From Halocafeteria seosinensis (lineage: Eukaryota), in contig LVLI01000191.1 of NCBI GenBank assembly GCA_001687465.1, forward strand, positions 1 to 36,268: DNA of 36,268 bases, given 5' to 3'. The stretch's first letter is position 1; every line of letters starts with the position of its first letter. This document shows, one piece after another, positions 5,752-28,605 of the stretch. The position numbers were made by a program, and so were the translations under genes. The notes beneath the pieces were generated by a model that had not been told where the DNA came from, searched no databases, and saw only the letters and a program-made list of their open reading frames with translations.

Positions 5752-8488
5752 ATGGGGGCAAAACAGGGGAAGGACGCCCACGCAAGTGTGCATGATGAAG
5801 CTTCCATACACAGGGAGCAACGCCGACAGCACAATCAAGGGCCAAATAGTGGCAGTGGAAACACTGATAACCCAGGTGGCTCCTCTACCACCGCTAAAGC
5901 CTCCCCTGTAGTCAATAAACCAGGACAAGGAGGCTCAGCCCCGTTCCAAGCCACAGGTCCTGGTCCTCCTGGAGGTGGTTTACGTATCAAATTACCGGGT
6001 AATTCTGGCTCCAAGAACAACAAACGGAGAGAGCAGCAGCCGCCGGTACAGCAAGTTCATTCGAACAACAACGAGCAGCAATCTCAGCAACGACCTAGAC
6101 CTATTCAGAACCGAGACAGAGGGAGTGAACAGGAAGAGGATGAATCTCAGTATGTGTTACCCAAAGAAAGAAGAAATAGATCTATTGTGGACCACTATGA
6201 ACTGCCGGAGAAAGAGGTAGCTAGAGGTACGGGTTGCGCGCGCCACACTGACGTGTACTTCCCCCACTGTTCCTAGTCATTGTTGACATTTCTTGACAGG
6301 TCACTACGGCGTGGTCAGAATGGGAAAAGGAAAGGTTGATGGAGAAATTTACGCTGTCAAGAGCATTCTCAAGAAGAAAGCAAGTTACCTTCCGCTTATA
6401 CGAAACGAGATCAAGATTCTAGAGAAATTGCAGCACCCGAACATTATCCGTTTGGTAAGTCTGAACGTTACGAATCTGAGTTATTGCATGTGTAGGGGAG
6501 AAAACTCTTATCAAATGCCTTCTATCTGGATCCTGTTCCACAGGTAGACTGTTTCGAGGAAGGAAGAACAGTGCATCTGGTGTTTGAGAAATGTGATGGG
6601 GGCGAATTATTCACTCCAATCGCTGACTCTAATTTCCGGTTCACGGAAAGACAAGCCAGTCGCGTTGTGTCCAAAATGCTTTTGGCTATTCAGTACTGTC
6701 ACGAACGATCATTGGTTCATCGGTACGTTGATTAAGTAAACTTAAGGCTTTGCCCCGATTCTCGTAACGTTTTCCTTTGTCACGAGCCCACTACAGTGAC
6801 CTCAAGCCAGAGAATGTTCTTCTTAGCGACTACGGTATTGACTCGGAGATCAAGGTGATCGACTTTGGACTTGCTACTGCAGTTTCTGCGGGTGAAATAC
6901 TGACTCATCATGGTATGCGGGAAACATCATGCATTCTAACATGTGACGGACGCTCCTCACAACAAGTGTGTATCTTGGAATGATAACGCAGTTGGCACTC
7001 CCTATTACATAGCACCTGAAGTAATTGAAAAGCAATACAATGAGCTTTGCGATTTATGGTCCTGTGGGGTGATTACGTTCACTCTCATGTGCTCGTACCC
7101 GCCATTCTGGGACAATTCCGAGAGAGGGATATACGCGAAGATTAAGTAAGTAAACAGTTGCAAACACACTCCTACTAATTCCACATGACATCACGTGGTT
7201 CTCAGACGAGGACAATACGGGTTTGAAGGCCCAGAATGGGCCAAACGGACCACAGCCGTCAAGGATTTCATCGACAAACTGCTCACGAGGAACCCGCGCA
7301 GACGGCTGACGGCAGAAGCAGCTCTACAGCACCCTTGGATAATGTACGAAGGGGAAGCGTCAGTGGAGAGGCATGACCCAAGATTGTTAAGTACGTGATA
7401 AGTGCTTCATGGGTACTTGAGTCACAGTGCGCACCCCACACTTGTGTTATACAGCTCGATTACGGAAATACTGTGCTTATCCATTCTTGAAGAAACTGGT
7501 TATGCTAATTGCAGCACACTTCTTTATCCACCGCACCAATGATCTCTCAAGAGAAAACGTACGTAGCGTGAGTTTGAACACTCGATTCTGGTTTCTATTT
7601 TCGTCAGAGTTGACGTATGTGCAGGAAATGTGGTCTCAATTTGATCCCCAAGGAGAAGGACGAATAACGATCCAGTCTCTGGTAAACTACTTGATGGAAC
7701 GAAGGAGGATCCTGAATCGACCAATTTCGCAACGCGAGATCAAAATGATACTAGAGGGCTTGCAAATGTGAGTCTCTCCTACATGTGCGCAGACATTTCT
7801 GTCGCTACAATTTTTTTTCTCCGCAGTTACGACCATGAGAATGTGACATTCATGGAATTTGTTGCTTGGAGTGTCCCTCGTACAGTCTATCTCAACGTAA
7901 GCCATTGGGAGCATTTTTTGTCGCCTTATTGTGCAGCTATGTCGTTTTTCTGTGGCGCTGCAGAACGAGCGGTTACTGCAAGCATTTGAAATCCTGGATG
8001 TCGACGGAGACGGCTTTATATCTGTTGCTGATATTGAAAAGTTTACGTTAAATCTTGCAGCAGGTGGTGTCTTCTCAGGCATTCGACGCCGTTATAAACT
8101 GTACGCCTCTGAGTTCCAAATTGAGCCATTCAGGAAGTACGCTGACACCATCGTTCAGAACCTGAATCTCTTCGAAGGGCCGGCAGATCTCAATAAGCTG
8201 TCTCTAGATGATAAGCCTGTAATACTTTCCACCAGTGTAATGGAATGCGCGGCTGCTGCAAACCGACCTGTTTGGCATGAGACTCGGCATGCGCCGTATC
8301 AGCAAGGTTACATAGCTCAGCATGGTAGTCCGCAGAAGATGGCATGGTATCAACGCCTGTGGAACATTTTTGGTCGAAAATCGAGAAGAATCAATAAAAA
8401 ACAGAAAGAAAAAAGAGATGTCGGCATGGGGGTGGATTTTGCGTCATTTATGAGAATTGTATGCGGTAACGAAGCTGATCCGTTTTAG
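5752..8488 (+). CDS. Calcium-dependent protein kinase (CDPK)-like: CAMK kinase domain + junction + partly degenerate EF-hands; 10 exons
   Basis: Nine GT-AG introns: 6227-6299, 6455-6543, 6723-6796, 6913-6991, 7146-7205, 7391-7454, 7559-7624, 7768-7826, 7897-7963. Motifs ARGHYG, YAVK, GGELF, HRDLKPEN, IDFG, GTPYYIAPE, DLWSCG; junction RLRKY..FLKKLVM; canonical EF loop DVDGDGFISVAD. MGAKQGK at 5752 resembles an N-myristoylation start (alternative ATG at 5743). Confidence 0.88.
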
Positions 8489-11976: not shown

Positions 11977-12219
11977 GTTTACTGTCGGCAGCAATAGGAT
12001 GACTTCTCTGCCTCCACACTCACTGGTGTGCAACAATAATGTTATATGTAAAGGACACAATACAACACTGTTACTGGAGTGAATATGACAAGCCTCGAGA
12101 ACAGTAACAAACAACATAGGCGCTTGCGTCACCTTGGCTGATGAGCGGTAAAACGTGCTACGGGGGGGAAACTGGCTTCACTGACAGTCACTGTGTATTT
12201 TCGTTGAAGTGTCACATGC

Positions 12220-12785
12220 CTATTCATGCTCAATTTTATGTTCTCCGTAGGACTTGCGCAGCACTTCCGCAGATTTGGAATGATCTGCGAACGGTAAGAG
12301 CAAGTTTAACAGAAGCAATTCATGTTCTGATCCTAGTTATGGCAGACATACCCGCGGGGCCATATCCCGTAGACTTCCCGTAGACGTTGATAGTTCTTGC
12401 AGACTTGTCATGCTCGATCTTGCCACCTCCTAGAACCTCTAGATGAAAGTCGGAGCCAATTTCATCTTGTACTTTTTCGAAGATATCGCCTGCAACAGTA
12501 CCAGGTATAGACAGCGTTGTATGGTATCCTCCATACCTTCACAGTCTATGCAATTTGTTGAAGGCCGAACCTACCATGGTATTCGCAGTCCCCTCGTCCT
12601 CTTACAATGTGCTTACTGTTTCCAGAAGAATCTTTTACTTGAATAAGAATGTACCTGCCAAAAAGTTCAAAAGTCCACTTATCATCACGTGGGGAATTCA
12701 AACTTCCCGGCACCGTAGAACAATCTTCTTACTTGAATTTGCCTTCGTCGATCTCAGCATCGACGATATCATCCAGGGACGACAT
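12220..12785 (-). CDS. PHPT1: Janus/Ocnus-family 14 kDa phosphohistidine phosphatase; exons 12785-12733, 12654-12575, 12489-12352, 12284-12220
   Basis: Only fragments appear in the ORF track. Introns 12655-12732, 12490-12574 and 12285-12351 give MSSLDDIVDAEIDEGKFKYILIQVK..KHIVRGRGDCEYHGDIFEKV..LEVLGGGKIEHDKSARTINVYGKSTGYGPADHSKSAEVLRKSY..*. GxFKY, EYH (catalytic His), GGGxI and VYGxSxxYG motifs are all present. Confidence 0.93.
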
Positions 12786-13238
12786 TGTTTCAAATTCCTG
12801 TGTGGTGTTAATAAAGTCCCGAATAGTTCCCCTTGAGAAGCAATGTTCCCTGTTAAGCAATCTGTGTTCGGATTCGTGGAATCCTATGCGCAGAGTGTGC
12901 CCAGCTCGGAGTGTATACAGGATACTGCAGCAGTTTGCCAGCCGTCGCTTTGCGTTTCGCGTTGAACAACGAATGACCGAACGGAATACCATCATATACT
13001 GCTCCAATCCGATATTATCGATCTTTGCGCTACAACATGCATGATGCATCGCCGCGTCAACGCGGTGTTCAAGAAAGAAACAATCCTTTCGTCGACTTGT
13101 TGACCCCGATCACGGCGTCCAAGAATGCCATGATATGGCTTGATTTTGCCTCTTTCGGCACATGATTGGACATGCCGTAGTCATATAGCCTTTCTATGGT
13201 GTGTTGTGTCTCGAGAGAGGAACTCGTACGGGAGGAAA

Positions 13239-16200
13239 ATGGCCATGCTGGGAGGATTTGGCGTGTCCGTCTCGGACCAGCGCCATGCTCATTTAGGCCT
13301 TTTAATGGACCAATTGAAGACTGCTCGGCTACATTCAGCCTCCTATTCCGAAGAAGTCCAACTTGAGAAGCTGAATGAGGTCAGGAACTTCTTGAAGGAA
13401 TCCGGGGAAACTGGACTGAAGAACCGGGAATACTTCATTTCCAACGCTACGGGGGCTATTTTGGAACTCTTTGGTTTATTAGACGAGATACACAGACGAA
13501 AAAGGGAGCGATACGTGCATGGAGCTTCTGATGGAGAGGATACACAGGAGGATGAGATAACCTTGGCCGTTTTGGAAATTTTTATCGAACTGTTAACACC
13601 ACTGCAAGAGGAAGAGGATGGCTCATCCCAGAAACACACTTCCTCACGACGAGGTAGCGGTGCATCCAGTAACACGATTTCTGTTCCAACTCACGCCCAG
13701 GCTGCCTACCGCATTGTACAAAGGAGAGAACACATACAGACATTGCTTGAGTTAGTAGCCAATGAGAGCACTTGGGACTCACTCTTGTCATTACAAGTTC
13801 TAGTCCAACTAGTGAAACTTGTTCCTGACATGCTTGTACCACATCTCCAGGATTGTGAAGCGGGATTTGAGGCCCTTATGCAAATGCTCCATGGGAGCGA
13901 GGAGATAAGGAACGAAGCACTACTGCTGATGGTGCATCTGTCTAACCTGAGCTTGCATTTTAGACAGTTCTTTATGTTCCAGGACGGGTTGAGCCAGGTG
14001 TTTTCGCTAATCCACGAGGGAAGTCACTCTCCTACTGACGTATTTCTCCAGGATGGATTGCAGGTTGTCTGTAACGTTTTACGGTCCATTGGTGTTGGAG
14101 ACTCGAACTTGATCGTTCAGCATGACAACTTCTCATCCTCATCGATCAACCCCATTCTACTTAGCAACACAAATTTGCCGCAAAAATCATTTATCGAATT
14201 CGAGAAGTACAAGGATATCATGTCGTTGTTACAGATTTCGGATGGTGATATTGAAGCTAAACAAGAATATGGACATGAGGAAACTACAACGGAGTCGGGC
14301 GGATTTGGGGCGACTCTACGAATGTCATCTACGGATGGTGAAACACAGAAACGGAGTCACCATGAGCAAGATCACCACGGATCGATCGAGCCTGTTGACA
14401 GCGGAATGTTACGATCACAGAAGTCTCTGATTATACACTACGGATTAAGTGTCTTGGAATCGTTGCTAGACCATATTCCCCCCTTGTTGCATCACCTGTT
14501 CTGGAGGGCTAATTGCAATTGTGGGCACGTACTAAAACAGTCGTCTCCGTATAAGTTTTCTGCTGGCCATACGGAAGAAGACGTGGTTTGGGATTGGATG
14601 GATCGACTCTTCGCCGAAAAGAGAAATGTAGTGGCTCACAACCAAGAGGGTTTGGCGATGGCTCCTGGGTTTGTCGAACACATAGCTGATATCGCTTTTG
14701 GACCTTATTGCTCAACGATCCAAAGGATTCGAGCTGTAAGTATCGTCTCTGCAATGGCTTATAACAACAGCCGTGTAGAGCATTCGCTAATGGAAATTGC
14801 ACTTTCCCGCCGAGTCAATGAGCACTTGGCGGGGGAACTAGGTCGTTCGTACAACTTCGTAGAGCTGCCTCAGGAGGGTACCTTCTTAAATGTGTTCTCG
14901 GCGAGCACTATTATTGCTCTACTGGCATCTACTGGACAAAACGCAAGCCTGTCTGAATCTTTTGATGTGGATTCTGTTAATGTTGAAACATTGTCGAGTT
15001 CTTCGTGGGAGCACATTCATGGTCTCCGTCCCCAATCGCAGGGGGAGACGTGCGCTAATTTCCTTTTAGAACACCTGCAGTCCTCTGAAGACGCATGCAT
15101 TACCTTTATTGGTCAAACGATTTCGTCGCCACGGGCTATGAACATTGATAACGATGCGGAGTCTCCGCCCATCTTATCTCCAGGTAGGATTGTGTTGGAT
15201 GCTTTTTTCTCCAGCTGCGATGCTCTATCTTCCCAGTTACAAGCCAACGAATCGTTTGCTTTCAACGAAACTAGCCGAGCCCATCTTGGTGTGTTTTCAT
15301 TCTGCTGTCGGGTATATGAGTCGATATTTCGTACCAGCCGTACGGCTTGCGAAGAAATTGGATTCAGACTATCTCGGGCTCAGAGACCGACGGACACAGG
15401 GAATTACTGTGAGCGCTTGTTAGATTTTATAATAAAAACGCTGTTAACTCTGCTAACAAATCGCGGAGCAAATGCTGACTCCGTATATGTGAATCTTGAA
15501 AAGCAGCAGATCGAGCACTCAGCAACCAGTGGTATGAGCTTGAGCGATTACATGGTCTGGTCGCTTTTTAGGATCCTATCCCCCTGGGCTTGCATTTCCA
15601 ACGAAGTGGTGGAACAAATTGCCCAAGAAGTGATGGGAGTTTACATGATAGACGTCGGGAAGCATCTCGAGGCAAGCCTTTCCCGGCAGGCTGCCGTTGC
15701 TTTTTTTGTTACCAGTCTCTGCCTGTCGTCAAAGGAACCTAGTGAGACCCACCCCAAGTTGGAGCGGATTCTTGAGGACAACGAATCTTTGGCAAGTTCA
15801 TCCGCGGAACAGATAAGAGCAAGTATACTACATAGTGTAACACTAGGAAACTTGGAGGGTATTCTGAGCAATTTTTGGAGCAGCTCTTCGTCCGGGGAGT
15901 TCTTTCAAACAGTTGAAACCGAATGGAAGAATAGCTTTGATGGCTTGTCGCGCAGCCTAGGGCTAAACGAGGAGTTGCTCTTTCGAACCTTACAACTGCT
16001 GTGTCCTTCTTTCGATATAGAGCATACCAAGAATCGACTCAGTCCTCTATTGTTAACGGCCTCATCGTCGTTGTGCAGCTGCTTAGCGATGCAATACGAA
16101 ATTGATATATCCTATGTCCCATTTGAATCGCCGCCTCGAGACAACACTGCATATTGCAGTGCCACAATGGATCCTTTCATTGTACTGAAAACACGCCAGT

Positions 16201-18269
16201 TGCAGCAACAGTTGAGCGAAAAAGCTGCTGAGCAACAAATCAGTAAGATAAACCATCTTTTGGCTTCTTACGATATTTCGGAAAAGGTACTAGACGCAGA
16301 AAGCATTAGCAACGATCTGTCGGCGGAAGTGCTGAAGCAAGTCGTGAAAGAGTTGTTAAGGCTTGTGAAGGAGTCTCCATCGGATTCGAAAATCGCTACT
16401 GATGACGTCGCATCCAGCATTCCAAGGGCAGGAGCAGGCAAAGAAGCACCAATAGTGAAGCAGCTAGAAGAAGAGCGGGATACCTTCAAAAGACGTGTCA
16501 AGGAACTAGAGGCTGATGTTGAGGCCCTGGAATCGGCGAATATCGTACCTACTCGTAAGCAAGGAACTTCTGCCACCGAGGAAACGGAAAATCTTCGACA
16601 GCAACTTGAAAACGAGCGTCATCGGAGACGCGAATTAGAGGAACAGCACACTTCGCATTTTGTCAATCCAGAACGCTTAACTGTGGGTCGCGGCCCGCAC
16701 GTTGCCATAGGCGGCAACGATAACTTAGAAAGAGCAATTTCCTTCGTAGCACAAGCAATGAGAACCCTTGAAATTACAGACAAAGAGGCTCCTAACGATG
16801 CGGCCAACTTACCACGGAACCTGTCCAGAGTTGAGGAGACCTTGGCTTCAAAGTGTAGTTCTTTGAACTCAATCTCAGCTGAGCTGGAACAGCTACGAAA
16901 CGACCACGAAGAACTACTTGTACTCCTGGCATCTCAAGATTTCGAGCAAGAAGAACTAAGGCAAGAACTTGCCAAGTGGGGCGGAAGCACTGCCCTCCAA
17001 AACGCACAAGAACGTGCCCAGCAGGCACTGCGCAGGTTCACCAACGACGGCGATAATATTGTTGACAACGAGTATTTGAGCAAAACGTTAGAATTCATGG
17101 ATAATGAACGTGGAGTTTCTTATGAAAAAGCGGCTGACACCTCTATGAATTACTCGTTTGGATACGACTCTCATCCCGTGACTGCTATTCAAGATCCCAA
17201 TAACGAGCATGGGCAGGGGTTCGAGCGTTGGGATGATAATATGGGTGAATCCGGGGGTACAAAGGAACGGGTAGTAACGGAAAACGGTTCAATTGGGGAA
17301 GAACGCAGACGTTCTGTGGAGAATGACGCAGTCGATATAAAGCCTAGTGATGAGCAGCAAGCAAGTATAAATAAGAATGGCCATCCTAATTGCGAGCATG
17401 GATCACTTGTTGAATCTTTTGGCTTACAAGAGCAGCAGACCACGTCTCAAGATAACAGTTCAGAGCAGTATAGTAGGATGAGTGAGCAAGACCATCCATT
17501 CCGTGAACATGTAGACACTTCGCAAGAGGGACTTAACCAATTTCAGGACAACCCTTCGAAGCATACCATGATGAATGATGAAAGTAGCTATACTGCTCCA
17601 GAGCAAACGGAAGAGTACGTGCAGTTTAGCTCGCACGATGGAACTGAGCTGAAGGAACCACAAGAGGAACATTCCGGAAACTTGGAGGACGATGAAGAAA
17701 CCCACTATTCTGCTCGAGAGCAAGGTGCCCTGGATTATTTTCGATCGCAGCATCGGCAGCAGACTGATGACGTTAGCGCTAGAGGGTATCAACAAAATCA
17801 TCCTACGAATGTCCAAGATGATGATGACGAGTTTGAAGAAGTGCCTTTATCTCCCGACGGAAGTGAAACACATAGATCGGGCCAAGCAGGATTTGCTAGC
17901 TCAATATGGAGTGGACTTTGGAATCTGGGTAAGACTGTAATCGATGATGCCGTGGAAGACCCCTACTACGAAAATAACAACGAAGATACAGAAGAAGGGT
18001 ATGGCGAGGAGGATTTCCTATATGAGAATCGCGAGATGCCCTATGATAAACCCGGTAAACACTGGTTCAGTAACGCCGAGCTGGCCGCGCAACGGCAACA
18101 TGAGTATGACTGCTCCAACGTCGATAGCAATGTTAAAGATACTGAAGAAAACAGTGAGCCTTCTTCCTCTCAGTTTTTCGCGAGTGGTGCCGGGGACTCA
18201 ACTAGTCTCTTTGACACAGATACTGGTGAGTCCCCAACAGTGCGCAGTGCAGCAAAGTGGTTCGGATGA
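13239..18269 (+). CDS. USO1: Uso1/p115 Golgi vesicle-tethering protein, single exon, with long acidic tail
   Basis: Armadillo-head motif EEIRNEALLLMVHLS..FQDGLSQVFSLIHEG..FLQDGLQVVCNVLR, coiled coils, and the p115 C-terminal signature LRNDHEELLVLLASQD. First ATG at 13239. Confidence 0.82.
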   Translation: MAMLGGFGVSVSDQRHAHLGLLMDQLKTARLHSASYSEEVQLEKLNEVRNFLKESGETGLKNREYFISNATGAILELFGLLDEIHRRKRERYVHGASDGEDTQEDEITLAVLEIFIELLTPLQEEEDGSSQKHTSSRRGSGASSNTISVPTHAQAAYRIVQRREHIQTLLELVANESTWDSLLSLQVLVQLVKLVPDMLVPHLQDCEAGFEALMQMLHGSEEIRNEALLLMVHLSNLSLHFRQFFMFQDGLSQVFSLIHEGSHSPTDVFLQDGLQVVCNVLRSIGVGDSNLIVQHDNFSSSSINPILLSNTNLPQKSFIEFEKYKDIMSLLQISDGDIEAKQEYGHEETTTESGGFGATLRMSSTDGETQKRSHHEQDHHGSIEPVDSGMLRSQKSLIIHYGLSVLESLLDHIPPLLHHLFWRANCNCGHVLKQSSPYKFSAGHTEEDVVWDWMDRLFAEKRNVVAHNQEGLAMAPGFVEHIADIAFGPYCSTIQRIRAVSIVSAMAYNNSRVEHSLMEIALSRRVNEHLAGELGRSYNFVELPQEGTFLNVFSASTIIALLASTGQNASLSESFDVDSVNVETLSSSSWEHIHGLRPQSQGETCANFLLEHLQSSEDACITFIGQTISSPRAMNIDNDAESPPILSPGRIVLDAFFSSCDALSSQLQANESFAFNETSRAHLGVFSFCCRVYESIFRTSRTACEEIGFRLSRAQRPTDTGNYCERLLDFIIKTLLTLLTNRGANADSVYVNLEKQQIEHSATSGMSLSDYMVWSLFRILSPWACISNEVVEQIAQEVMGVYMIDVGKHLEASLSRQAAVAFFVTSLCLSSKEPSETHPKLERILEDNESLASSSAEQIRASILHSVTLGNLEGILSNFWSSSSSGEFFQTVETEWKNSFDGLSRSLGLNEELLFRTLQLLCPSFDIEHTKNRLSPLLLTASSSLCSCLAMQYEIDISYVPFESPPRDNTAYCSATMDPFIVLKTRQLQQQLSEKAAEQQISKINHLLASYDISEKVLDAESISNDLSAEVLKQVVKELLRLVKESPSDSKIATDDVASSIPRAGAGKEAPIVKQLEEERDTFKRRVKELEADVEALESANIVPTRKQGTSATEETENLRQQLENERHRRRELEEQHTSHFVNPERLTVGRGPHVAIGGNDNLERAISFVAQAMRTLEITDKEAPNDAANLPRNLSRVEETLASKCSSLNSISAELEQLRNDHEELLVLLASQDFEQEELRQELAKWGGSTALQNAQERAQQALRRFTNDGDNIVDNEYLSKTLEFMDNERGVSYEKAADTSMNYSFGYDSHPVTAIQDPNNEHGQGFERWDDNMGESGGTKERVVTENGSIGEERRRSVENDAVDIKPSDEQQASINKNGHPNCEHGSLVESFGLQEQQTTSQDNSSEQYSRMSEQDHPFREHVDTSQEGLNQFQDNPSKHTMMNDESSYTAPEQTEEYVQFSSHDGTELKEPQEEHSGNLEDDEETHYSAREQGALDYFRSQHRQQTDDVSARGYQQNHPTNVQDDDDEFEEVPLSPDGSETHRSGQAGFASSIWSGLWNLGKTVIDDAVEDPYYENNNEDTEEGYGEEDFLYENREMPYDKPGKHWFSNAELAAQRQHEYDCSNVDSNVKDTEENSEPSSSQFFASGAGDSTSLFDTDTGESPTVRSAAKWFG

Positions 18270-18421
18270 CTGTTTTCTAACTAGTGATTTTAGAGGGGTT
18301 GCTTCCGGATGCGTTGATATACTTCCTGCTTTTGTCCTTGGCAAGAGGGCGTTTGCGTTCCATAGTTTGCTCATTTCTACGTCAACGCCAATGCTGTTTG
18401 AAGAAGTTGTTGCGAGTGCGC

Positions 18422-21400
18422 TTAACTGCTGATTATTTGCACTGAACAATCACCACTTCCTACTGCATCTTCTGCTGGTTCATCCCTATACAAATCAAAG
18501 GCAGGATGCAAAACAACATCTCTACCGGCTAGTCGATTGCACGCCGAAAACGTTAGCAGTCCGTATAACAGGTTTTCACCTTCGGGAATTTCCTCTAACC
18601 TACTCCGTAGCTTTTTCACTAGAGGGTGACTACCCTTAACAATAGAGAATCGTTCGATATCACGCTGGTATGTTTCTGCACATCTCTGCACGGCAGAGTT
18701 GCTTTTTTTCTTTCCGCGGGTCGGCTTGGCAAGAGCCGATTCCTCGGGTAAAATATACTTCCTGAGCAATCTCCACACGGGATTGTTCTCGAATTCGGGC
18801 GGATTCTCTTTATGCACGGCTTCTTCGCTCCCCGGGAATCCTAAAAGAACCACGAAACGCCAAAGTGTGTGAGCGAGGGTATGTTCTTCATCAGATTTTA
18901 GTGCTTCACCCAAAGCCAAGAAGGTTACATCCTCAAAAGTAGCATTTATTTCTTCGGGATACAAACTTGTACGGTCGTTCGAGCTCGACTTTTGCTTCCG
19001 AGCCTGTGACAATCTTCTTTGTCCCAACTTCGCTTTATCCTTCCAAAGTCCTTCCAACTCCTTTATTAGAGCGTCCGGCGCCTGGACTTCCTCTAATATC
19101 TCTTCGTACGGCATGGCTCCAGTGAAACAGTGGAACATGCAGAGACCGAGATTCCACATATCGTTGTGAAAACCTTGTGTCGAGGCGTCACCGTATATTA
19201 GGAATTCTGGTGGCACGTTTTCGAAAGTGGTAAAATGATGAACCTGCACTGACTTTCCCAAAGATTCCGAGTCACAATCCGCTGTTCCAAAGTCGGCGAG
19301 TTTAACGAGGTTGGACCGTTTGGAGTAGCAATCTAATGGCAATAAGAGTCTATAATTAGCATCCTCAATCTTGTACCTCAGGTGGACGCAACTGTTGTTG
19401 CAATCATTTGAATTAAGCATTTCGCTTGCGGGTCTCAGCAGAAAGTTCAGGAGCTTAATATCATAGTGACACAAACCAATTTCTCTCTGGGCTACATGAA
19501 GCGAAAATGCCATTTGAAACACATAGCTCAAGGCATCTTGTCCTGAATAGGATACGTCGATATTTTCGCCGTCTTCCATTCGAAGAAATTCCTCCATATC
19601 GCCTTGCGCGCAGAGTTCCATTCTAATATACTGATAATGCGATTTCTCACTTTCCGGAGGACTCGGAATTTTTGCTACCTGTGGATTGTCCGAACTTTGA
19701 GAATCGTCCCCTTGAATGCTTTCAATGGCACTCTTGACCTTTTCGCTATGTTGAGAATATACTGAGCTAAGCTCTCCGGCGGAAACCTGCCATGGGTTCG
19801 TGCTTTCCTCGTTTCCCCACCAAGCCGCTGATATGTGATACTGGTGAGGGAAGACTTGATAAACCTCTACGTAGTGAGGACACTTACCAGTCCGCACCAA
19901 CTCACTGAGTAAGCATGAAGTTTGTACTTCAGCTTTTACCATTTCAAAGTTATCAACTGCGCACAATGTTTCAACGTCCATGATAGCCACTGCCTCCATT
20001 CTACATAAAGCAGCACACCAGACCTCGTAAACCTCCTTAAATCCACCGGCAGTCAAGTATCGTCCCCATGGAAACGCTTTTAAAAACGGGTACCACTGCG
20101 TATTTAGGGGAACAACTGGTTTGCTACTGGTATCAGCAAAATCATGATGTTTGGTTTCGGCTGCCCTCCAGGAGTATAACGTCCGCGAGATCCTATTCCA
20201 GTCTTTGCAAACTTGGGGTGCTATGTGCATTAAATGATAAGAATCCAGGAACTCCAGCACAAATTCAAAAACTTTCAATGACTCCTCTTTAGAAAGTTCT
20301 TTCCGTTTAGTGTCCCGGCGCTGTGCTTCTGTTTCCTGGTTGAGAGATGAGGTTTTCGTTGTACTCGCTTGAGGTTTCTTAGTCAGAACGTTACCCGGAG
20401 TCTGTTTCACATCTAAGCCGGGTAGTTTGACCGCGCCTATTAACGACATTCTATCCTTCAGTGAACTAGAGGCTTTGGTTTGCTCCGACGTCTCCGATGT
20501 TGAGTTCTGTCCGGGAGGTTTCACACTCTTATTGGCTAGACCGGGGAGTGCATACGCACTACCACCAACACTAATCCTTCTCATTTGATTCATAGAAGGA
20601 GCGCGCGCTGACTTCATCGACATCCTGCTCATTTTTGCAACAGAGCCCCGTTTCTGCTGCGCGCTACTGAATTTCTTTGAGAAGGCCTGCTTGGCTAGTC
20701 CGTTCTTGGAGCCCAGCTGATTTGCAGGAGCATTGACACCCAATACTTTCGTTTTATCGCTGTGCCCGTGAAGTTTAGTTTCTGTTTCTTCCGTCTTATG
20801 TTGTCGCCCTTCGTCCTCGCGGTGGTGAGATTCTTCAGTAAACTGTAGTCCCTCGGCTACATCGGAGTGGGTACTATTCTCGCTAGTTGTACTCAACGAC
20901 CCCAGGCTTGGTCTCTCCTTATTTCGATGCTGCACTAGTGGCGTCATCTGATCCTGTTGTTTCTCAGTGTTCTGCTCTTCTTCTTCTTCTCCTTCTCCAT
21001 CTCTATCACCGGTGTGACCATCTTCTTCGGATTCCAGCAACGACGATAACCCTTCCATACCAACAACAGATTTCCATGTGTTACTTGCTGACGTCGGTTT
21101 GTCTTTACTGGTTTGTTTCTTACCATAGTAGTTTCGCTGAACGGGTCTTGCTTCATGCCAATGCACACCCTTGTTCGAAAAAACTCGAAGGGGCTTGGAT
21201 GATGAAACGTGCACTTTACTTTCCTGTTGGGTGTCCCCGGCATCGTGACTAATGCTAGAGGAAGCTGTATCATTTCGTCGACGACGTCCATACTGGGACT
21301 TTACAGATGGTCCTCCGGTCGCATTCACTGTATTTTCGTCTACGACACCCAAAGGCTGGTTTTTGCGAAGCTGACTTCGTCCGCCGGTCTGTGTGTCTTT

Positions 21401-21487
21401 TTTGCCTCTACCACCAGTGTTCTCATCAGCGGCGTTCGTAAAGCGGGCTGTACGGATTGGCCTTTCTAAAGGAGGCGTACTGTCCAT
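18422..21487 (-). CDS. Atypical protein kinase with disordered N-terminus and an F-box-like motif; single exon
   Basis: F-box-like ESLKVFEFVLEFLDSYHLMHIAPQVCKDWNRIS. Kinase motifs AGGFKEVY, YIRMELCAQGDME, HYDIKLLNFLL, KLADFG, PPE, DMWNLG, and a C-terminal R..GRDVVLHPAF. Confidence 0.85.
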   Translation of the reverse strand: MDSTPPLERPIRTARFTNAADENTGGRGKKDTQTGGRSQLRKNQPLGVVDENTVNATGGPSVKSQYGRRRRNDTASSSISHDAGDTQQESKVHVSSSKPLRVFSNKGVHWHEARPVQRNYYGKKQTSKDKPTSASNTWKSVVGMEGLSSLLESEEDGHTGDRDGEGEEEEEQNTEKQQDQMTPLVQHRNKERPSLGSLSTTSENSTHSDVAEGLQFTEESHHREDEGRQHKTEETETKLHGHSDKTKVLGVNAPANQLGSKNGLAKQAFSKKFSSAQQKRGSVAKMSRMSMKSARAPSMNQMRRISVGGSAYALPGLANKSVKPPGQNSTSETSEQTKASSSLKDRMSLIGAVKLPGLDVKQTPGNVLTKKPQASTTKTSSLNQETEAQRRDTKRKELSKEESLKVFEFVLEFLDSYHLMHIAPQVCKDWNRISRTLYSWRAAETKHHDFADTSSKPVVPLNTQWYPFLKAFPWGRYLTAGGFKEVYEVWCAALCRMEAVAIMDVETLCAVDNFEMVKAEVQTSCLLSELVRTGKCPHYVEVYQVFPHQYHISAAWWGNEESTNPWQVSAGELSSVYSQHSEKVKSAIESIQGDDSQSSDNPQVAKIPSPPESEKSHYQYIRMELCAQGDMEEFLRMEDGENIDVSYSGQDALSYVFQMAFSLHVAQREIGLCHYDIKLLNFLLRPASEMLNSNDCNNSCVHLRYKIEDANYRLLLPLDCYSKRSNLVKLADFGTADCDSESLGKSVQVHHFTTFENVPPEFLIYGDASTQGFHNDMWNLGLCMFHCFTGAMPYEEILEEVQAPDALIKELEGLWKDKAKLGQRRLSQARKQKSSSNDRTSLYPEEINATFEDVTFLALGEALKSDEEHTLAHTLWRFVVLLGFPGSEEAVHKENPPEFENNPVWRLLRKYILPEESALAKPTRGKKKSNSAVQRCAETYQRDIERFSIVKGSHPLVKKLRSRLEEIPEGENLLYGLLTFSACNRLAGRDVVLHPAFDLYRDEPAEDAVGSGDCSVQIISS

Positions 21488-22110
21488 TATTATGCCTCAG
21501 ATACCTCGAATGCACCCAATGCGCTGCTTAACGGCTGCGGAACACCGATGCCGTCCTTGTTTGGCTCCAGTAGACGCTTTCAATACACGATTGATATCCA
21601 TACTAAGCGGACGAATAGGAACTATTCCAAATATACTGTGTTGAGTGAATGTGCATTATATCTGGTAAGTGCTCGAAGGAAACACAGAACGCGCTCAGCT
21701 CAACTTCACAATTTCCTGCGAATTCATCCTGTAAATTGCAATTTGGAATACAGACTATTATATACTAACACCTGCACGAATTGGGAGACCCCTGTAATAT
21801 TGTTGCATTTGCAAACACTTTTTCTCGTAGAAAAGGGTGCTTAATGAAAACGTCGCATTAAGGAGGGTTGGTTAGGGGTTTCTGCACTTCTGTCATACCG
21901 GGTACCGCTGGTATGTGGATTCCAAGGAACTGAAGAAAGTCTACAAAACAGCAGAGAAAGCCGAGTGTATGCCTTTTGATAGGGCTTGAATGGGGTCCTT
22001 GATGTTCTAATAGTAGTGCAACTAGATACTATCTTCATGTGCAAAAGGAGCTCACTATGCCACCGTCCTCGTGTTTGTATACGACTATCTAGGAAGAATG
22101 CTATCATACA

Positions 22111-22250
22111 TGTATGGCTTACGTATTTCGTGTGATTCAGCGTATGAAACGTCTCACCCTAACCCTAAGACAATACTGCATTCCGCTGTAGAGCTTCTGC
22201 AGCAATGAGTTCTTCACGTGTTGCATGTCATACAGGTGCTGTGTTTTTTT
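22111..22250 (+). ncRNA. Candidate telomerase RNA core (template ACCCUAACCCUAA at 22156-22168); true 5' and 3' ends uncertain
   Basis: Template complementary to (TTAGGG)n. Hairpin 22121-22152 lies just 5' of it, a pseudoknot at 22176-22213 lies 3' of it, helix 22111-22118/22227-22234 closes the domain, and T7 follows at 22244-22250. Located in a long intergenic gap. Confidence 0.6.
22244..22250 (+). terminator. Possible RNA polymerase III terminator (T7)
   Basis: TTTTTTT begins 10 nt after the 3' strand of the putative closing helix. Confidence 0.4.
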
Positions 22251-22574
22251 ACCCACTCTTATTCATTCACAATAAAAGCAAACACCTGTTAAATTTAAAC
22301 AGCAATGACTTTGACCCACAATTATCCCTTGTTAGAGACTTTCGAAGCTAGAACAGGGTAGGTGTGATTCATTGAACACCGTGTGAACCAGGCGTTTGGT
22401 CCGTTGGCGCCAAACTTTCCGCCGATAATGAGTGCGCACTGCCCACTAGCCTAGTGGCACTAGGTCTATTTTCGTTGCTTGGAGGAATTGCTTTAAGTAG
22501 TGTCTCCTTGTTATCTGATGCAACATCTGTTGCATACATTGAGTGTCTCCCATGAGTGACCTTTCGCGCTTAGG

Positions 22575-25500
22575 ATGAATACCAGTCCCATAAGGAAAGA
22601 CAAACCGACCCACAGTCCAAGCTTTTCTCAAGACGAGGTACTTGGAAAATATGGACCTCCAAGAAAAGCGTACTTTGATGACGACGTCAGATGGGTGGAG
22701 AGGTGGAAAACATTCGCTCCAGAGCTCCACGGGCTGGCAACCGACTTCAAAAAGCAAACTGAGATCATTCGAAGAAATCAACGAAGGGATGCAGGAGAGG
22801 AAAGACTACGCAAAAAGGGACTAGTGAAGCGAGAAAGTCCATATAAGACATTGCAATGGGTGGCTAAAGTGAAAAACACAAAGGCGGAGAAGTTTGCTTC
22901 GAGAAAATTTCATTTTTCTCCTGGTTTCTCGATAGATGAACAGACCGGCCCAGTAAGTCTTCGCTCGGGAAGCATTATTAATTGAATGATCAATTCCACT
23001 CTTCTTTGCTGTCCTGTTCAGATATGGAACCTCTTTGTACCTCCGTCGGTGGCCCAGAGAGAACGGAAAAAGATGGTGTGTGGGAATGTAACGTTGCGGA
23101 ATTGCCAACACCGTTGATCGATATGATATTCTTGTCATGCAGAAAGCCGATAAAGTAGCCATGGGAGTTAAGAGCCTTCAAGAGATTCTTCGAATCCATC
23201 GGGTTAATGCAAGAGTGCCTGATGGCTTTTCGTTGGAAATGCAACTGTCCATATTGCAAGAAAGGTACAAGCAATGGAGACAGAGAGAAGCCCGGAAAAA
23301 TGTCTTCACTCACTTTGAAACCAGCGACAAGAGGCTATACTGGTCAAAGCAGTATCGCACAAAGAGATTACTGCGTCGTTTAGAACTAGGCCTAATGGAG
23401 CAAAATTTTGATGAAGTAGTGATTGCGTGGGAAATGGGCGCTCCGAGGAAGTACATGACTCGCAGAGGTGACACTCCAATTACGGCCATGATTAAAGCGA
23501 AAGCGCATACCCATTTGCCGTTGGCGATTCGATTGGGGTGTGATATTGAACAAAGGGACTTCAACGGAACAACCCCACTAACCCTTGCAGCTCTGCTTAA
23601 CGACCCAGAAACCACGAAGATCTTAATTGACTCTGGCGCAAACGTAAATTCTCTTTCTTGTTTAAGCTACTCGGGGGAAACGGTGAGTCCATTAATGGTC
23701 GCTTCTGCTAACGGTAAAAGCGCACTGAAAGTGGTAGTTGCACTGCTTGAGGCAAACGCTGACGTCAATTTATGCGATAACCGAGGCCGCACTGCCTTAA
23801 TGTATGCTTGTAGATTCAGGTCACAGGGGGTCATCCCACTACTTTTGAGTGAAGGAGCTAACCCAGCACAGGTAGACTTTAGTGGATTCAGCTGCTTTGA
23901 GTGGGTTAGGTGTGCAGCCGCCGAGCGGAAAAAGCGAAAACAGGAGCAGCTTAGTGCAGGAAGCACAGTAAAGAGTGAAGTGACCGCCGTTTCGGAATAC
24001 GCGGTTCCTCTGGATGCGCTTGAATTCCAAATAATGCAAGCACTTCTGTCTGCGGTTCAGAGTGCACTATTGTTTAAACATGTAGCCCAAGAGGAGTCCT
24101 CAGAGACAGCACCCTTCGGTGACATCGCGAAGCTGTTTGAGCAGGGACTTAGCGCTCATGAAGTTTTCAGTAAAATCCAAGATTCAGCAAACAGCAAGAA
24201 CACGGAAGACGCAGATCCCGCTTTAAATATTTGGAAATCTGCCTCTGACCAGCTCAAAAAGGGGACACTTAGCAAGAACTTCAGCAAAGCAACTGATGCT
24301 TTTATGGAGAGTGGTCTTGCGAGTAAGTTGGGTATATCGCAACCATCTGCTGGACACAGACTAGAACAACAGCACCGTGAATCGTTAGATCCTATTATCG
24401 CGCATGATGTAGTAGCAGATACTAACGCTGGTACTAACCTAGACCCAGGGAGAAATAACTCCACGCAGCTAGCAGTCTCTGGACAACACCAGCTACCTTT
24501 CCCACCAAAAAAGGCGGACTTGCCCGAGCATCAGCTCGATATTATTGTGCCGGAGGCAGAAGCATGGCCAAGTAGTCTGGAGTACTTGGAGCAATCCCTT
24601 GGAAAGGAACAGGGAAGCACGTGGCTAGGTTACACCAACAAGCGGAAAAAGAAGACCTCATCTTTGTCATTTGCGGCGCTGTTCTTGGCATCTCATAGTA
24701 GCGCGCTAGTTAGGCAACACGCTCGCCGTCAATTGGAGCTGGGCAGGGTACAAAGACTGGAACGACAGTACGATCCTCTACTGTTCGCCTCAGGGTTGGA
24801 AAGTTTACGAGAGCATCGTGCCCAGGAATTCTCGAGGCGCAAGAAAAGGGCCATAAGACGTCTGAGAATGGAGTTAGAAAAAAATAGGAGAGACAATGAG
24901 GCAGGATCAAAAGAGGATCGTACAAGTAGCGTAGACGATGGATTGAAACTTGTTTCGTCTGGAGCAGTTGACAGGAAGACCGAAGGAATCCTCGGCCGAA
25001 TAGCTGCCGATCTAGAGTTCGGAACATTCATTAATCAGCAATACGGAATAACCGGAGGATTTTACTCGGTGTCAGGAGAGATTGATAGCGACGAAGAAGA
25101 AAAACACGTGTTGAAGGGAGGCGAGAAGTGCGATTATAACCCGGAAGACGAAGCGCGCTTTGTTGATCTGAACACTCACCAAAAGCTCGGAACTCGTAGT
25201 GCCCTCTACCTAACTCAACAGGACTCTCATAGGCATCATCTCTTAAAACCACTACTTCCGAAAGGTCTAACAGAAGGAATACTAATTATGAGAGCTCAAC
25301 TTAGAATCCGCGAAGAGGCTGCTAGGGCGAGGGCAAAGAAAGGCACACTGGAAGTCAGCAACTCTTCGGAAACTCAAGAGCGGAATACAGTCGAAAGCGC
25401 TCAAGAGCTGCTTGTAGAAAAGAAAATGGCCAGAATGGATGCCAAGAATAGCAGCAAAAACTACAAGAGTAATCCATCCGGTATCGCTGCTCTCGAGAGG

Positions 25501-28500
25501 GTGAGAGATGCAAGGCAGCAAAAGCGTCGAAAGCAGGAAAACATGGATAAGTTAGTCGAGTTTCAGAAGGAGCAATCGTCGGAGCATACATGCTGGCCGA
25601 TGATTAGTGATCAAGTTTCCGGCCCACGTAAGACGGGAGCGAAATTGCTTAGAAAAGGCTCTAGTGTCTGGCGAAATCAAGTCGTTGGTGGTTACAGAAA
25701 CACTCGTTCGTTTTCTTTGGAGTCCAAGCCTTCTAAGGAAGCTATAGATACCTCCAACAGCTTGTCCAAAACGGATAGCTTCAGAGCTACGAAAACTGGT
25801 GAGCAGTTCGCTGCAGTGCCCTCAGCTATGAAGCAACATCGGGAAGAATTGTCTACCCAGGTCGCCAAGACCATTCGGTCCCAGCTTCCAGGGTTATTGA
25901 ATGACAAAGAAGCCCTATCCAAGCGGCGAGAGTTGGTTGTAAAGGCAGAGGAATCGGAAGAAGCGGAGAAAAAGCAATTTTCAATGCAGTCTATATTTAA
26001 CGGTAAAACGGAGAGCTCTGAGAGTACGTCGGCGCAAACAGCGCAGCAGCGATGGACGTTGACTGACAAAGTAGTGGACTCGTCAAGTGTTCGCACCGCC
26101 ACTGGGGGGCAGTTCAGAAACATTGCGGCCGAGAGGAAGTCCAAGATACTATTCGACAAGTCACAAGATGAAAAGCGAGAAGAAGACCGCAGAATGGCTA
26201 ATGAGCTTCTAGGCACAAAGAAAACAGAGCATTATTCCAAATTCTCCGACTTGGAGATTGTGAAACTGTATTTAGAAAAGCGTGACTTTGATCAAGCTGA
26301 AGAAATTTTAGAACGGGTGCTGAAGCTTCAACGAGAAAACCTTCCACCACTCCATCCCAGTATAGCGAAAACCCACGAACTCTATGGTAGATTATATCTC
26401 GCCAAAGGGCAATTCAGCGACGCGGCTGAGTTCTTGAGAGACACAATTTCGACGCTCAGGAAACAAGGGGAAAGCGTAGTAAAGGAGGAAGTGTTTGAAT
26501 TAAACATGCTTTTAATGGAAACCTTAAAACTAGCGGGTCAACTGCGCGAACTTCGTGAAGAACTAACCAAGTTTAACCAGGAGCACCGCTCAGCCCGCAC
26601 TCTGCAAGAGGTACAACCAGAATCCCACAAGATAGCTTCTTCGGCAATCATGAAACAACAGAGCCTCCTCATTGAAGAAGCGATAGCGAATGTGAATAGA
26701 CAAATAGATAGAGAGCAGATGGCAAGCGAGGACGGTTGGTACATGCTGCGATGCAACAATGCAAAGGCTCGGCTCTTGAGGCGGACACAACGAGCTAAGT
26801 ATATTGCAGAGCATACAGCCGTCTGGCAAACGTTTCAACGTGCTCTGTACGAGCGTTCCCATGGAGATATCCTTTGGGAGATAGTGGAAGATGATTTGAA
26901 GTATCGGACGCCAGAAGAGTTGGACAATATCGCTTCCAAGGGTGCGAACGAGCTGTTGGGGGACATCGAAAGGGAGCCCGAGAAGTTTGGTGCATCGGCA
27001 ACGGTCGACTCCGATGATTCGGAGGATGAACATACTGACTCTAGCGGGAGGACACACTTTTTGAAAATTAACGCATCTACCTATGAACTTGAAATTTTAC
27101 TGGGAGTGTCCAGATGGAAGTCCCTCGCCGTTCAGTACGCCAAACAATTTGGTATGGAAAAGGAGTTTATGTTCCTTTCGGCAGTCCAAGCCTTACGAAA
27201 ATTACGTACTGACAGACTCGTGCGGGCCACCGAAGAAGATATGGCGAGAGTACTTGTAGCCAGCTCAGATAAAGCGGGAAGCATTTACAAGAACTATATT
27301 GAGAGGGCCAGCTGGCTACATGTGATTCCAGTACATCTACGTCAGGCGGTAGTGGAAGCTATCAGCAGGGTACCTTTAGACACAACGCCTCTTGAAAAAT
27401 GCTATGCTTTGGTTTTCCATCAGATATTCGTGCCAATCTTTCAAGGACAGTTCTGGAACAGTAAGGTCGGGGAGCGTTACAAGCTGGAGAGAAGTCTGAC
27501 ATTGATGCTTCCCACCTGGCCGCTGTCCTTAATTGCTAAGATTGCTGCATCCCAAGACTTCATGAAGAAGATTACATTGATGCAAAAGGTTGTCCGGGGC
27601 CACCTTTTGCGAATCTCGAAAGAACTTGATATTGACAAAGTGTGTGGAAGGCTATCCAGCCGTTTTCCTGGACGGGTCGTTATGCTGAGGTACCTCACCG
27701 ACCAACGCAGACAAGCACGTGAGACCTACAGGGACAGACAGCTGCACCCTGGAGTGAATAAGAAATCTAAGAAGAAGCGTCGAGCACGCCGGGGGAGCAC
27801 GGGCGCTTCGGCATGGTTGGGAGGGATGTCGGACATTTACGAACAAACTAGAAGAAAAGCCAACGAGGAAACACCCGCTACGGAGCCAGAGCACTATGAA
27901 TGGGATTTATCTGGTTACGATGGAATCGATGAGTATGGATATCCATGGAGAATAGACGAGTATGGTTTCGTCAGCTACCTTGATCGTAGTGGTACCGAGT
28001 TCTACATGCAGGAAGACGGAAACTGCTACTTCCTTGATGCAGATAGTAATCCGGTTTATTTCCTTTCTCAGCCCCCAGCTCAAACAGCAGTGACTCAACA
28101 GCCTCTTGAGTATGAAATGAATGCCAACGGTTCAGGTGGATATCTAGAGATTGACGATACCAATGCAGAGGGGAACCACGTTTGGGGTGAGCAAGCGTCT
28201 CTATTTGAAAATGAGACTTACGACAACATGGGTGGTTCTCCATTTGCCAATGAGTTTCAAGAAAGTGAATATGCGCAAAATTCTCAGGATGAATTTTATG
28301 GACAGCTAAATGATCAAGGAGACTCCTTCGTAGGGTTTGCACCGTACAGTGAAGATGAATGCGCTTCTTCTGCATTTGAACTGTCTACAGGTGAACGCGA
28401 ATACGATTCAATGGACGAAGATTTCCAGGCTACCCAAATTCAGCGCGTAGTCAGGGGATTCTTCGCCAGACAGTACACACGCAGACTTCTTCAGTACGTG

Positions 28501-28605
28501 TACTCTAGCTTTTTCGATGATGCCAGCGGGCTGTATTATTATCAAAATAACTTCACCGGAGAAACGTCCTGGTATCCTCCAAGTTTTATTACTGTTCAGT
28601 GGTAG
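22575..28605 (+). CDS. Large multidomain protein: ankyrin repeats, degenerate B-box-like segment, TPRs, RGS-like domain, IQ motifs, C-terminal WW; exons 22575-22952, 23022-23075, 23143-28605
   Basis: Introns 22953-23021 and 23076-23142 link the 136-aa ORF to the 1822-aa ORF in phase. Motifs: GTTPLTLAA, GRTALMYAC (ankyrin); DQAEEILERVLKLQRENLPPLHPSIAKT (KLC-type TPR); EKEFMFLSAVQ..AGSIYKNYI..FWNS (RGS); IQRVVRGFFAR (IQ); GLYYYQNNFTGETSWYPP (WW). Confidence 0.85.

What the first reader, a model, noticed from the sequence alone, without database searches (positions are those of the whole stretch)
22111..22250. Candidate compact telomerase RNA gene in a long intergenic gap
Seen: ACCCTAACCCTAA (22156-22168) is 13 nt complementary to TTAGGG repeats. 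A rough expectation for any phase or strand in 36 kb is 12 x 36268 / 4^13, about 0.007. Around it, in the canonical order: (1) closing helix UGUAUGGC 22111-22118 / GUCAUACA 22227-22234 (8 bp, one GU); (2) a hairpin ending 3 nt before the template, UUUCGUGUG 22126-22134 / CGUAUGAAA 22141-22149 plus ACG/CGU, where a template-boundary element should lie; (3) an H-type pseudoknot just 3' of the template, stem 1 CUGCA 22176-22180 / UGCAG 22198-22202 and stem 2 AGAGCUU 22190-22196 / GAGUUCU 22207-22213; (4) T7 at 22244-22250. The several GU pairs work only on the + strand, the strand a template requires. The gap (21488-22574) is 2-4 times longer than the other head-to-head gaps here (about 290, 450 and 320 nt). 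Established: boundary element, template, pseudoknot and closing helix form the universal telomerase RNA core, and ciliate and plant TRs are short Pol III transcripts; TRs diverge too fast for routine annotation. Inference: this is the organism's probably unannotated TR. Caveats: the template slightly exceeds two repeats, which is long, and a competing hairpin (GCUGUAGA/UCUGCAGC) overlaps the pseudoknot.
Basis: partly seen in the sequence, partly recalled or inferred. Interest (0 to 1): 0.9.

Follow-up and report, generated by a model that had tools for sequence, protein, structure and literature searches.

The report
Likely spliced telomerase RNA in protist
Sequence contigs skip a textbook intron in the gap between two genes of this single-celled eukaryote, and the non-coding RNA they point to likely carries a perfect two-repeat copy of the common chromosome-end sequence, so it is likely the telomerase template RNA, made as a longer spliced transcript rather than the short RNA first proposed.

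Summary
The 13-nt match is rare per window (0.006) but not per genome (about 7 in 38.9 Mb). Hairpin, pseudoknot and closing helix together occur at 0 of 1500 random anchors under tuned rules, 10-48 of 1000 under looser ones. New: contigs of two runs of one sample skip 21665-21753 (GT..AG on +), and overlapping contigs reach from 21577 or earlier to 22247. So a spliced + strand RNA crosses the proposed 5' end and likely carries the template; it has no credible reading frame. The compact Pol III model leaves no room for the distal stem-loop; a hairpin at 22232-22289 runs through the T7 tract. Verdict: telomerase RNA about 65% (spliced long form 52%, compact form 13%); no telomerase role about 35%.

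The parts
21577..21664 (+). Exon 1 of the gap RNA (5' end not known; 21577 is where the X4 contig starts)
   Evidence: Contigs of X4 (21577-21663) and X3 continue across the joint
21665..21753 (+). 89-nt spliceosomal-type intron, GTAAGT...TACAG
   Evidence: Skipped in one contig each of X3 and X4 (one sample), present in X1; ends read from the window
21754..22247 (+). Exon 2 as far as contigs reach; likely continues to about 22290
   Evidence: X3 to 22070, X4 to 22144, X2 21783-22247. That these are one molecule is inferred from the 362-nt overlap of X4 and X2
21861..21887 (+). G-rich, telomere-like tract; predicted to pair either with the template region 22146-22166 or with 22039-22069
   Evidence: Folds; duplex tests 39, 73; not significant at region level (32 of 130)
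22111..22118 (+).
   Evidence: probability 0.76 in 22105-22255, 0-0.16 in longer pieces
22121..22152 (+). Candidate template-boundary hairpin (predicted); an alternative hairpin 22098-22143 is favoured in longer folds
   Evidence: 13 of 1500 random anchors; probabilities
22156..22168 (+). Candidate template, 13 nt complementary to (TTAGGG)n; copied part probably the 3' 9-11 nt (inferred)
   Evidence: covered by the X2 contig
22176..22213 (+). Candidate H-type pseudoknot: 5-bp and 7-bp stems, 9-nt loop 1 whose U22182 and C22183 are in register for U.A-U and C.G-C triples (predicted)
   Evidence: competes with hairpin 22185-22203
22227..22234 (+). 3' arm of the closing helix (predicted); in the long fold 22218-22231 pairs with 21645-21659 instead
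22232..22289 (+). Predicted 3' stem-loop that contains T7 (22244-22250) in its 5' arm and AATAAA (22271-22276) at its 3' arm; candidate distal stem
   Evidence: Helix probabilities 0.91-0.99; folds better on the - strand (-17.3 vs -12.0); AATAAA position
18422..21487 (-). Left neighbour: protein kinase gene, divergent from the RNA
   Evidence: Pfam Pkinase; homologues start at the same Met
22575..28605 (+). Right neighbour: ankyrin/TPR/IQ gene, model 22575-22952, 23022-23075, 23143-28605 (1964 aa, no internal stop)
   Evidence: introns inferred from sequence

Best explanation
Contigs skip an 89-nt GT-AG intron on the + strand of this gap, and the spliced non-coding RNA they point to (likely Pol II, likely 600 nt or more) is likely this organism's telomerase RNA or its precursor. 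Shown: the joint, contig cover from 21577 or earlier to 22247, the 13-nt telomere match on the same strand as the intron, and no credible reading frame. Inferred mechanism: Pol II starts near the kinase promoter, the intron is removed, and the RNA (perhaps trimmed at one or both ends) binds TERT. The 3' part of the match would anneal to the chromosome 3' overhang and the next six bases would be copied as one repeat. The pseudoknot 22176-22213 with two base triples and the stem-loop 22232-22289 would be the two TERT-activating domains. The G-rich tract 21861-21887 is predicted to switch between the template and 22039-22069 (4.5 kcal/mol apart), so the free RNA would need protein or 5' trimming to open the template.
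For: Joint GT..AG on + in X3 and X4 contigs, absent from X1; ends GTAAGT and TACAG. Template covered by an X2 contig that overlaps the spliced X4 contig by 362 nt. Chance of a sense 13-mer in a 670-nt RNA 0.00006. Nested hairpin, pseudoknot and closing helix: 0 of 1500 tuned, 10-48 of 1000 moderately loose. Two consecutive canonical triples in 65 of 633 random pseudoknots. Stem sizes (5 bp G/C-rich, then 7 bp, U in loop 1) fit the plant consensus (PMC8287931 section 29). Six of 7 gap ORFs score like wrong frames; the 98-aa ORF has no real homologue among 1.84 billion proteins. One X1 contig only lies on the stretch at 80% likeness, so no sign of a young repeat. Long templates have precedent (15 nt for a 6-nt repeat in two Caenorhabditis species), and so has a spliced Pol II precursor (Ustilago).
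Against: The runs are not on record as RNA; all four are one study, and the joint comes from one sample. No spliced contig reaches the template (X4 stops 12 nt short), and the X2 contig has no known strand and depth 5.4. About 7 such 13-mers are expected per genome. The spliced RNA folds no better than shuffles (z -0.35, 16 of 40). The lowest-energy fold pairs most of the template. Loop 1 has only two leading U and loop 3 is 4 nt, shorter than the 6-29 nt of plants. The long arm is not significant at region level (32 of 130). No Sm site or bracketing C/D boxes. If the species is H. seosinensis and its repeat is literally the 7-mer printed, only 7 nt match. One ORF over the template (22098-22208, 36 aa) scores in the coding range (5% of wrong frames score as high).
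Confidence: 0.52

Rival explanations
1. An ordinary spliced non-coding RNA with no telomerase role: a divergent transcript from the kinase promoter, or a long 5' leader of the ankyrin/TPR gene joined through a second intron ending at 22573. The 13-mer would be one of the few chance matches per genome.
For: About 6.8 chance 13-mers per 38.9 Mb. No excess folding. TTAG|G with a pyrimidine run lies just before the ATG at 22575 and GTAGGT at 22358 could be its donor. Loose rules find the core at 330 of 1000 anchors.
Against: Needs a sense 13-mer inside a rare spliced gap RNA (0.00006 per such RNA) plus correctly ordered helices (0-48 of 1000 at tight to moderate rules) plus the triple register (65 of 633). 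A leader of 800 nt or more with several short ORFs would be long for a genome where another divergent gap is 450 nt.
Confidence: 0.3
2. One reading: a compact Pol III telomerase RNA of about 145 nt (22105-22250) from its own type-3 promoter, nested inside an unrelated spliced Pol II transcript.
For: The closing helix is favoured only in this short piece (0.76) and the template is then open (0.83-0.99 unpaired at 12 of 13 positions). T7 follows the core; runs of 7 or more T occur at 4 places on + in the window. The X2 contig stops at 22247, inside the T-run (a contig end is weak evidence). The one published stramenopile candidate (Blastocystis) is of this type.
Against: No room for a distal stem between helix and T7. 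Contigs run through the would-be promoter and 5' end. No USE-like word upstream; Fajkus et al. found conserved USEs only in Blastocystis and Proteromonas among the stramenopiles analysed.
Confidence: 0.13
3. The match is a DNA or splicing signal: one of a pair of oppositely oriented telomere-like boxes (21870-21877 and 22156-22168), each about 400 nt upstream of a divergent ATG, or a doubled branch-point word in an unspliced intron (GTATGA 22142 to CAG 22202).
For: Symmetric placement of the two tracts. The match contains CTAAC, a recalled branch-point word, 40 nt before a CAG (one search lists the sites).
Against: CCCTAA is not enriched in the window (9 seen, 12.9 expected) and none of the other 6 hits lies in the gaps near 5500-5720 or 12785-13239. 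The X2 contig runs unspliced through 22142-22202.
Confidence: 0.05

Closest known systems
Plant/ciliate-type (Pol III, type-3 promoter) telomerase RNAs, including the Blastocystis candidate (Fajkus et al. 2021, PMC8287931; passages and sections 29, 30 read; supplement not readable)
   Same: Order hairpin, template, pseudoknot with a short G/C-rich first stem and longer second stem, closing helix; CCCTAA-type template as in Blastocystis
   Different: Here the locus is crossed by a spliced RNA; no USE-like word found; no long distal stem before the T-run; loop 3 shorter
Ustilago maydis telomerase RNA, cut from the 3' UTR of a spliced mRNA (PMC9564094; passages read)
   Same: Pol II-type precursor whose introns are fully removed, template downstream
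   Different: The Ustilago precursor encodes a conserved protein (Emi1) and has a putative Sm site; here the upstream ORFs look non-coding and no Sm site was found; the RNA is about half the size
Fission yeast and filamentous-fungal telomerase RNAs (as described in PMC9564094, passages)
   Same: Pol II long RNA with a spliceosomal intron
   Different: There the intron is 3'-terminal and only the first splicing step occurs; here it lies 400 nt upstream of the template and the exons are joined
Caenorhabditis intron-encoded telomerase RNA (PMC12921731; passages read)
   Same: Long template match (up to 15 nt), P1.1-like hairpin before it, biogenesis tied to splicing
   Different: There the RNA is in the intron and ends in H/ACA boxes; here the template is in an exon by contig evidence
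Trypanosoma brucei telomerase RNA (as reviewed in PMC11206666; passages read)
   Same: Protist Pol II telomerase RNA processed by the splicing machinery
   Different: Trans-spliced and box C/D; here cis-spliced, no bracketing C/D boxes

Membership tests
Telomerase RNA (any) | Template of more than one repeat, complementary to the organism's telomere | tested here: inconclusive
   13 nt match (TTAGGG)n. The organism's repeat was not seen; the H. seosinensis preprint prints (TAACCCT)n, which fits the 6-mer read with one extra base or a 7-mer that would not fit; the species link is recalled
Telomerase RNA (any) | Transcribed on the template strand as non-coding RNA | tested here: inconclusive
   + strand splice joint and contig cover, no coding signal; but no single contig holds both joint and template, and the runs are not on record as RNA
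Telomerase RNA (any) | Template-boundary helix just 5' of the template | tested here: inconclusive
   Possible (13 of 1500 random anchors) but probability 0-0.35 and two alternatives
Telomerase RNA (any) | Pseudoknot 3' of the template with a pyrimidine triple helix | tested here: inconclusive
   Stems present; two triples in register (65 of 633 random pseudoknots); competing hairpin dominates nested folds
Telomerase RNA (any) | Core-enclosing helix | tested here: inconclusive
   8 bp, but such a helix is found at 535 of 1500 random anchors
Telomerase RNA (any) | Distal stem-loop (stem IV, P4-P6, CR4/5 equivalent) | tested here: inconclusive
   Absent if the RNA ends at T7; hairpin 22232-22289 could serve if it runs on; contigs stop at 22247
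Telomerase RNA (any) | Conserved template and covarying helices in relatives | not testable with these tools
   No relative's DNA obtained; a likely syntenic 50,470-nt contig exists
Telomerase RNA (any) | Binds TERT and templates repeats | not testable with these tools
   Needs bench work
Pol III type-3 (plant/ciliate/Blastocystis) telomerase RNA | USE plus TATA shared with the genome's snRNA genes | tested here: inconclusive
   No word like the published USEs upstream of 22111, one TATA-like TGTATA at 22076; this genome's snRNA promoters were not available
Pol III type-3 (plant/ciliate/Blastocystis) telomerase RNA | Short unspliced transcript that starts just 5' of the core | tested here: not met
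   The RNA seen is spliced and extends more than 500 nt upstream; a nested short RNA is not excluded
Pol III type-3 (plant/ciliate/Blastocystis) telomerase RNA | T-run terminator after a distal stem | tested here: not met
   T7 present but 9 nt after the closing helix, inside the predicted 3' hairpin
mRNA-derived telomerase RNA (Ustilago type) | Precursor encodes a conserved protein | tested here: not met
   43-aa spliced ORF scores -0.099, like wrong frames; the 98-aa unspliced form, which shares its first 39 aa, has only multi-stretch repeat hits
Sm-type (fungal) telomerase RNA | Sm site RAU4-7G near the 3' end | tested here: not met
   No match in 21488-22600 (consensus recalled)
Box C/D-type telomerase RNA | Box C and box D bracketing the RNA with a terminal stem | tested here: not met
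   Near-C words at 21638 (lacks the first GA) and 22425; CTGA at 21930 and 22515; flanks read by eye show no terminal stem
H/ACA-type telomerase RNA | Hairpin-H-hairpin-ACA 3' domain | tested here: inconclusive
   ANANNA at 22299 and ACA at 22353 follow predicted hairpins, but such words are common (6 H-like and 9 ACA words downstream) and lie beyond contig cover

The most novel reading that the evidence does not exclude
The first telomerase RNA of a bicosoecid stramenopile, and of a new build: a stand-alone, non-coding Pol II transcript whose intron upstream of the template is fully spliced out, in a supergroup where telomerase RNA is held to be an ancestral short Pol III product. A telomere-like G-tract in its own 5' part would mask the template until TERT loading or 5' trimming flips it to a second partner, a built-in conformational switch.
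Probability: 0.35. Interest if true: 0.85.

Novelty: new variant of a known kind. Interest (0 to 1): 0.66.

Why it matters
In the papers found, the only stramenopile telomerase RNA candidate is that of Blastocystis, and the promoter-based search failed in other stramenopiles because they lack a conserved USE; a search for 'telomerase RNA' with 'bicosoecid' found 0 papers. A spliced Pol II telomerase RNA here would contradict the view that Pol III biogenesis is kept across Diaphoretickes, would explain why promoter-guided searches missed stramenopile RNAs, and would give a seed for covariance searches. If the species is H. seosinensis, it is in culture with a chromosome-scale genome, so the claim is directly testable.

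Tried and rejected
Rfam: no hit in the window at gathering scores, none in the gap to E 10; no tRNA. No whole genome held, so telomere ends, snRNA promoters, TERT and rival loci were not examined. No RNA holder listed among the runs. X2-X4 contigs do not cover 22305-23300, the start of the ankyrin gene; a part without cover is not used as evidence. Read evidence for the rest of the window was not obtained, so usual UTR lengths and transcript ends in this organism are unknown. JGI metagenomes: 594 stretches matched the kinase patterns, 0 were relatives. A DNA pattern around the template gave 6 loci (4 distinct); none is similar beyond the pattern, none has an Rfam hit, and 0 of 6 have the nested core at either rule set. 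Earlier scan notes: no look-alike by place or sequence. Long-range arms first looked significant (template-covering duplex 8 of 300 and 3 of 298; 21859-21886/22039-22069 0 of 300 and 1 of 297) but the anchors were picked from the fold; at region level the stretch ranks 32 of 130, so I dropped them as evidence. Sliding folding z-scores over 26 windows on each strand: best -2.08 (22170-22289 +), not notable after that many tests. Micro-protein reading: rejected on codon score and lack of homologues; the spliced 43-aa form itself was scored but not searched. Deletion-allele reading of the joint: rejected because its ends are GTAAGT and YAG. Transposon-end reading (raised by earlier notes on other stramenopiles): one contig only in X1 at 80% likeness; old or collapsed copies are not excluded. 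Literature did not confirm the accession prefix of P0001 (0 papers) or settle the repeat unit (one search gives none; one search lists one Blastocystis paper, not read). The H. seosinensis preprint's supplements and figures were not visible and may show the telomere sequence.

Full report
Setting. The window is gene-dense eukaryotic DNA of 44-50% GC. The gap 21488-22574 lies between a kinase gene on - and an ankyrin/TPR/IQ gene on +. The kinase domain is 100% identical to EukProt protein P0001, whose source name is a transcriptome accession beginning GECG; the named distant hits are a diatom, an oomycete and a pelagophyte. I recall that prefix as Halocafeteria seosinensis, a bicosoecid stramenopile; two paper searches did not confirm it. 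The preprint on that genome gives 46.8% GC and 38.9 Mb (parts 1-2 of 3 read), which fits the window's GC. The species is therefore likely, not shown. No genome was held.

Observation. All elements are as described. The 13-mer is expected 0.0063 times per window, 6.8 times per 38.9 Mb and 0.00006 times on the sense strand of a 670-nt RNA. With the template pasted into random window positions, the hairpin occurs at 13, the pseudoknot at 106, a closing helix at 535 and T6 at 44 of 1500 anchors, and the nested set at 0 of 1500; shuffled flanks give 23, 93, 557, 88 and 0 of 1500. Those rules were tuned to the case. Loosened stepwise, the nested core occurs at 0, 10, 48 and 330 of 1000 anchors. So the layout is uncommon, by a factor of roughly 20-100 at moderate rules, but not unique.

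Four runs hold the stretch, one study, at most three samples, none on record as RNA. X1 carries the whole stretch on one contig and may be the window's source. One contig each of X3 and X4 (the same sample) skips 89 nt, which reads 21665-21753, GTAAGT to TACAG on +. That is a spliceosomal intron on the template strand, so a Pol II-type RNA crosses the gap (inference). The spliced X4 contig runs 21577-22144, X3 to 22070; an X2 contig runs 21783-22247 without differences. No single contig holds both joint and template; one molecule is the simplest reading of the 362-nt overlap.

Coding test. A codon score trained on window genes separates true frames (mean 0.094, n 151) from wrong frames (mean -0.103, n 453). 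Six of 7 gap ORFs score between -0.06 and -0.28, the spliced 43-aa ORF -0.099; the seventh, 36 aa over the template, scores 0.05. No gap segment passes the exon threshold. The 98-aa unspliced ORF finds 6 proteins among 1.84 billion, each through 4-10 short stretches; the three I read are tandem repeats, and the ORF has no Pfam hit.

Structure. The compact piece folds no better than shuffles (z -0.51), nor does the spliced RNA (z -0.35). Helix-only energies are -9.2 and -10.0 for the two stems against -9.7 for the hairpin, so the knot is feasible if both form. In its favour, U22182 and C22183 face U22195-A22208 and C22194-G22209, the register for two pyrimidine triples, seen in 65 of 633 random pseudoknots. 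Its 5-bp G/C-rich and 7-bp stems fit the plant consensus; loop 1 is 9 nt (6-8 in plants) and loop 3 is 4 nt (6-29). A stem-loop at 22232-22289 forms with 0.91-0.99 probability and contains the T7, with AATAAA at 22271; it also folds on the other strand. In the long RNA a telomere-like G-tract (21861-21887) pairs with the template; freeing the template costs 4.5 kcal/mol and moves the tract to 22039-22069. These arms passed anchor-level nulls but not a region-level one (32 of 130). No Sm site or bracketing C/D boxes were found.

Telomere. The preprint prints the repeat as (TAACCCT)n. Read as a window on (TAACCC)n it matches the template; read literally as a 7-mer it matches only 7 nt and would refute the candidate. 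A companion preprint gives no sequence in the passages found. I put about 75% on the 6-mer (judgement).

Relatives. Homologues of three neighbouring genes each lie on a contig of 50,470 nt (P0064 58%, P0003 63%, P0060 48% over the regions searched), which suggests one syntenic contig, but its DNA could not be obtained. JGI metagenomes held no relative of the kinase, and the 6 template-pattern loci are unrelated and lack the core. Conservation, the usual test for such RNAs, is therefore open.

Comparison. Fajkus et al. (PMC8287931; passages and sections 29-30; supplement unreadable) report Blastocystis as their stramenopile candidate and say other stramenopiles lacked a conserved USE. A 2025 review (passages) holds Pol III biogenesis to be conserved across Diaphoretickes. 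Spliced Pol II routes are known in Ustilago (precursor mRNA, passages), fission yeast and filamentous fungi (terminal intron, same passages), trypanosomes (trans-splicing, passages) and Caenorhabditis (intron-encoded, passages). None read matches a non-coding RNA with a fully spliced intron upstream of the template. Searches listed no bicosoecid telomerase RNA; the library lacks most subscription papers. Earlier scan notes propose intron-borne C/D candidates in other stramenopiles; they are unchecked and this locus lacks such boxes.

Verdict. It works like a telomerase RNA on anatomy; membership is not shown. Odds: spliced long telomerase RNA or precursor 0.52, compact nested Pol III RNA 0.13, ordinary RNA with a chance match 0.30, promoter or branch-point word 0.05. 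Novelty: new variant of a known kind. Interest 0.66.

Noticed in passing
window 4671-4727 (-): Box C/D snoRNA-like stretch (AUGAUG ... CUGA); Rfam sR32 at 18.5 bits, E 0.083, below the gathering score of 40. It lies at the 5' end of the - strand ORF 2948-4672, possibly in an intron.
   Followed up: partly
window 5413-5448 and 5749-5784: Strongest long-range duplex of 130 regions tested (-41 kcal/mol on +, -30.7 on -): a 12-bp perfect inverted repeat extended by wobble pairs, spanning the gap between two divergent ORFs.
   Followed up: no
window 12218-12785 (-): Small multi-intron gene whose exons resemble 14-kDa phosphohistidine phosphatase (Janus/Ocnus; name recalled, not scanned).
   Followed up: partly
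window 13239-18269 (+): Long gene with weak similarity to plant golgin candidate 6 (Uso1/p115-like; E 6e-8) and a 58%-identical relative P0064.
   Followed up: partly
window 13134-21663: One 8,848-nt X3 contig reaches from the gap RNA leftwards past 21300; its length would take it through the kinase gene to about 13134, which suggests overlapping transcript ends in this compact genome (only 21300 onwards was laid).
   Followed up: no
window 22560-22574 (+): Pyrimidine run plus TTAG|G directly before the ankyrin gene's ATG looks like a 3' splice site, so that gene may have an upstream non-coding exon.
   Followed up: partly
P0001 vs window 18422-21487: The transcriptome protein P0001 has a different N-terminus from the window ORF and from P0002/P0003, probably from a frameshift in its assembly.
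   Followed up: no
window 36098-36268: Abrupt AT-rich end with short tandem repeats, possibly the edge of an inserted element.
   Followed up: no
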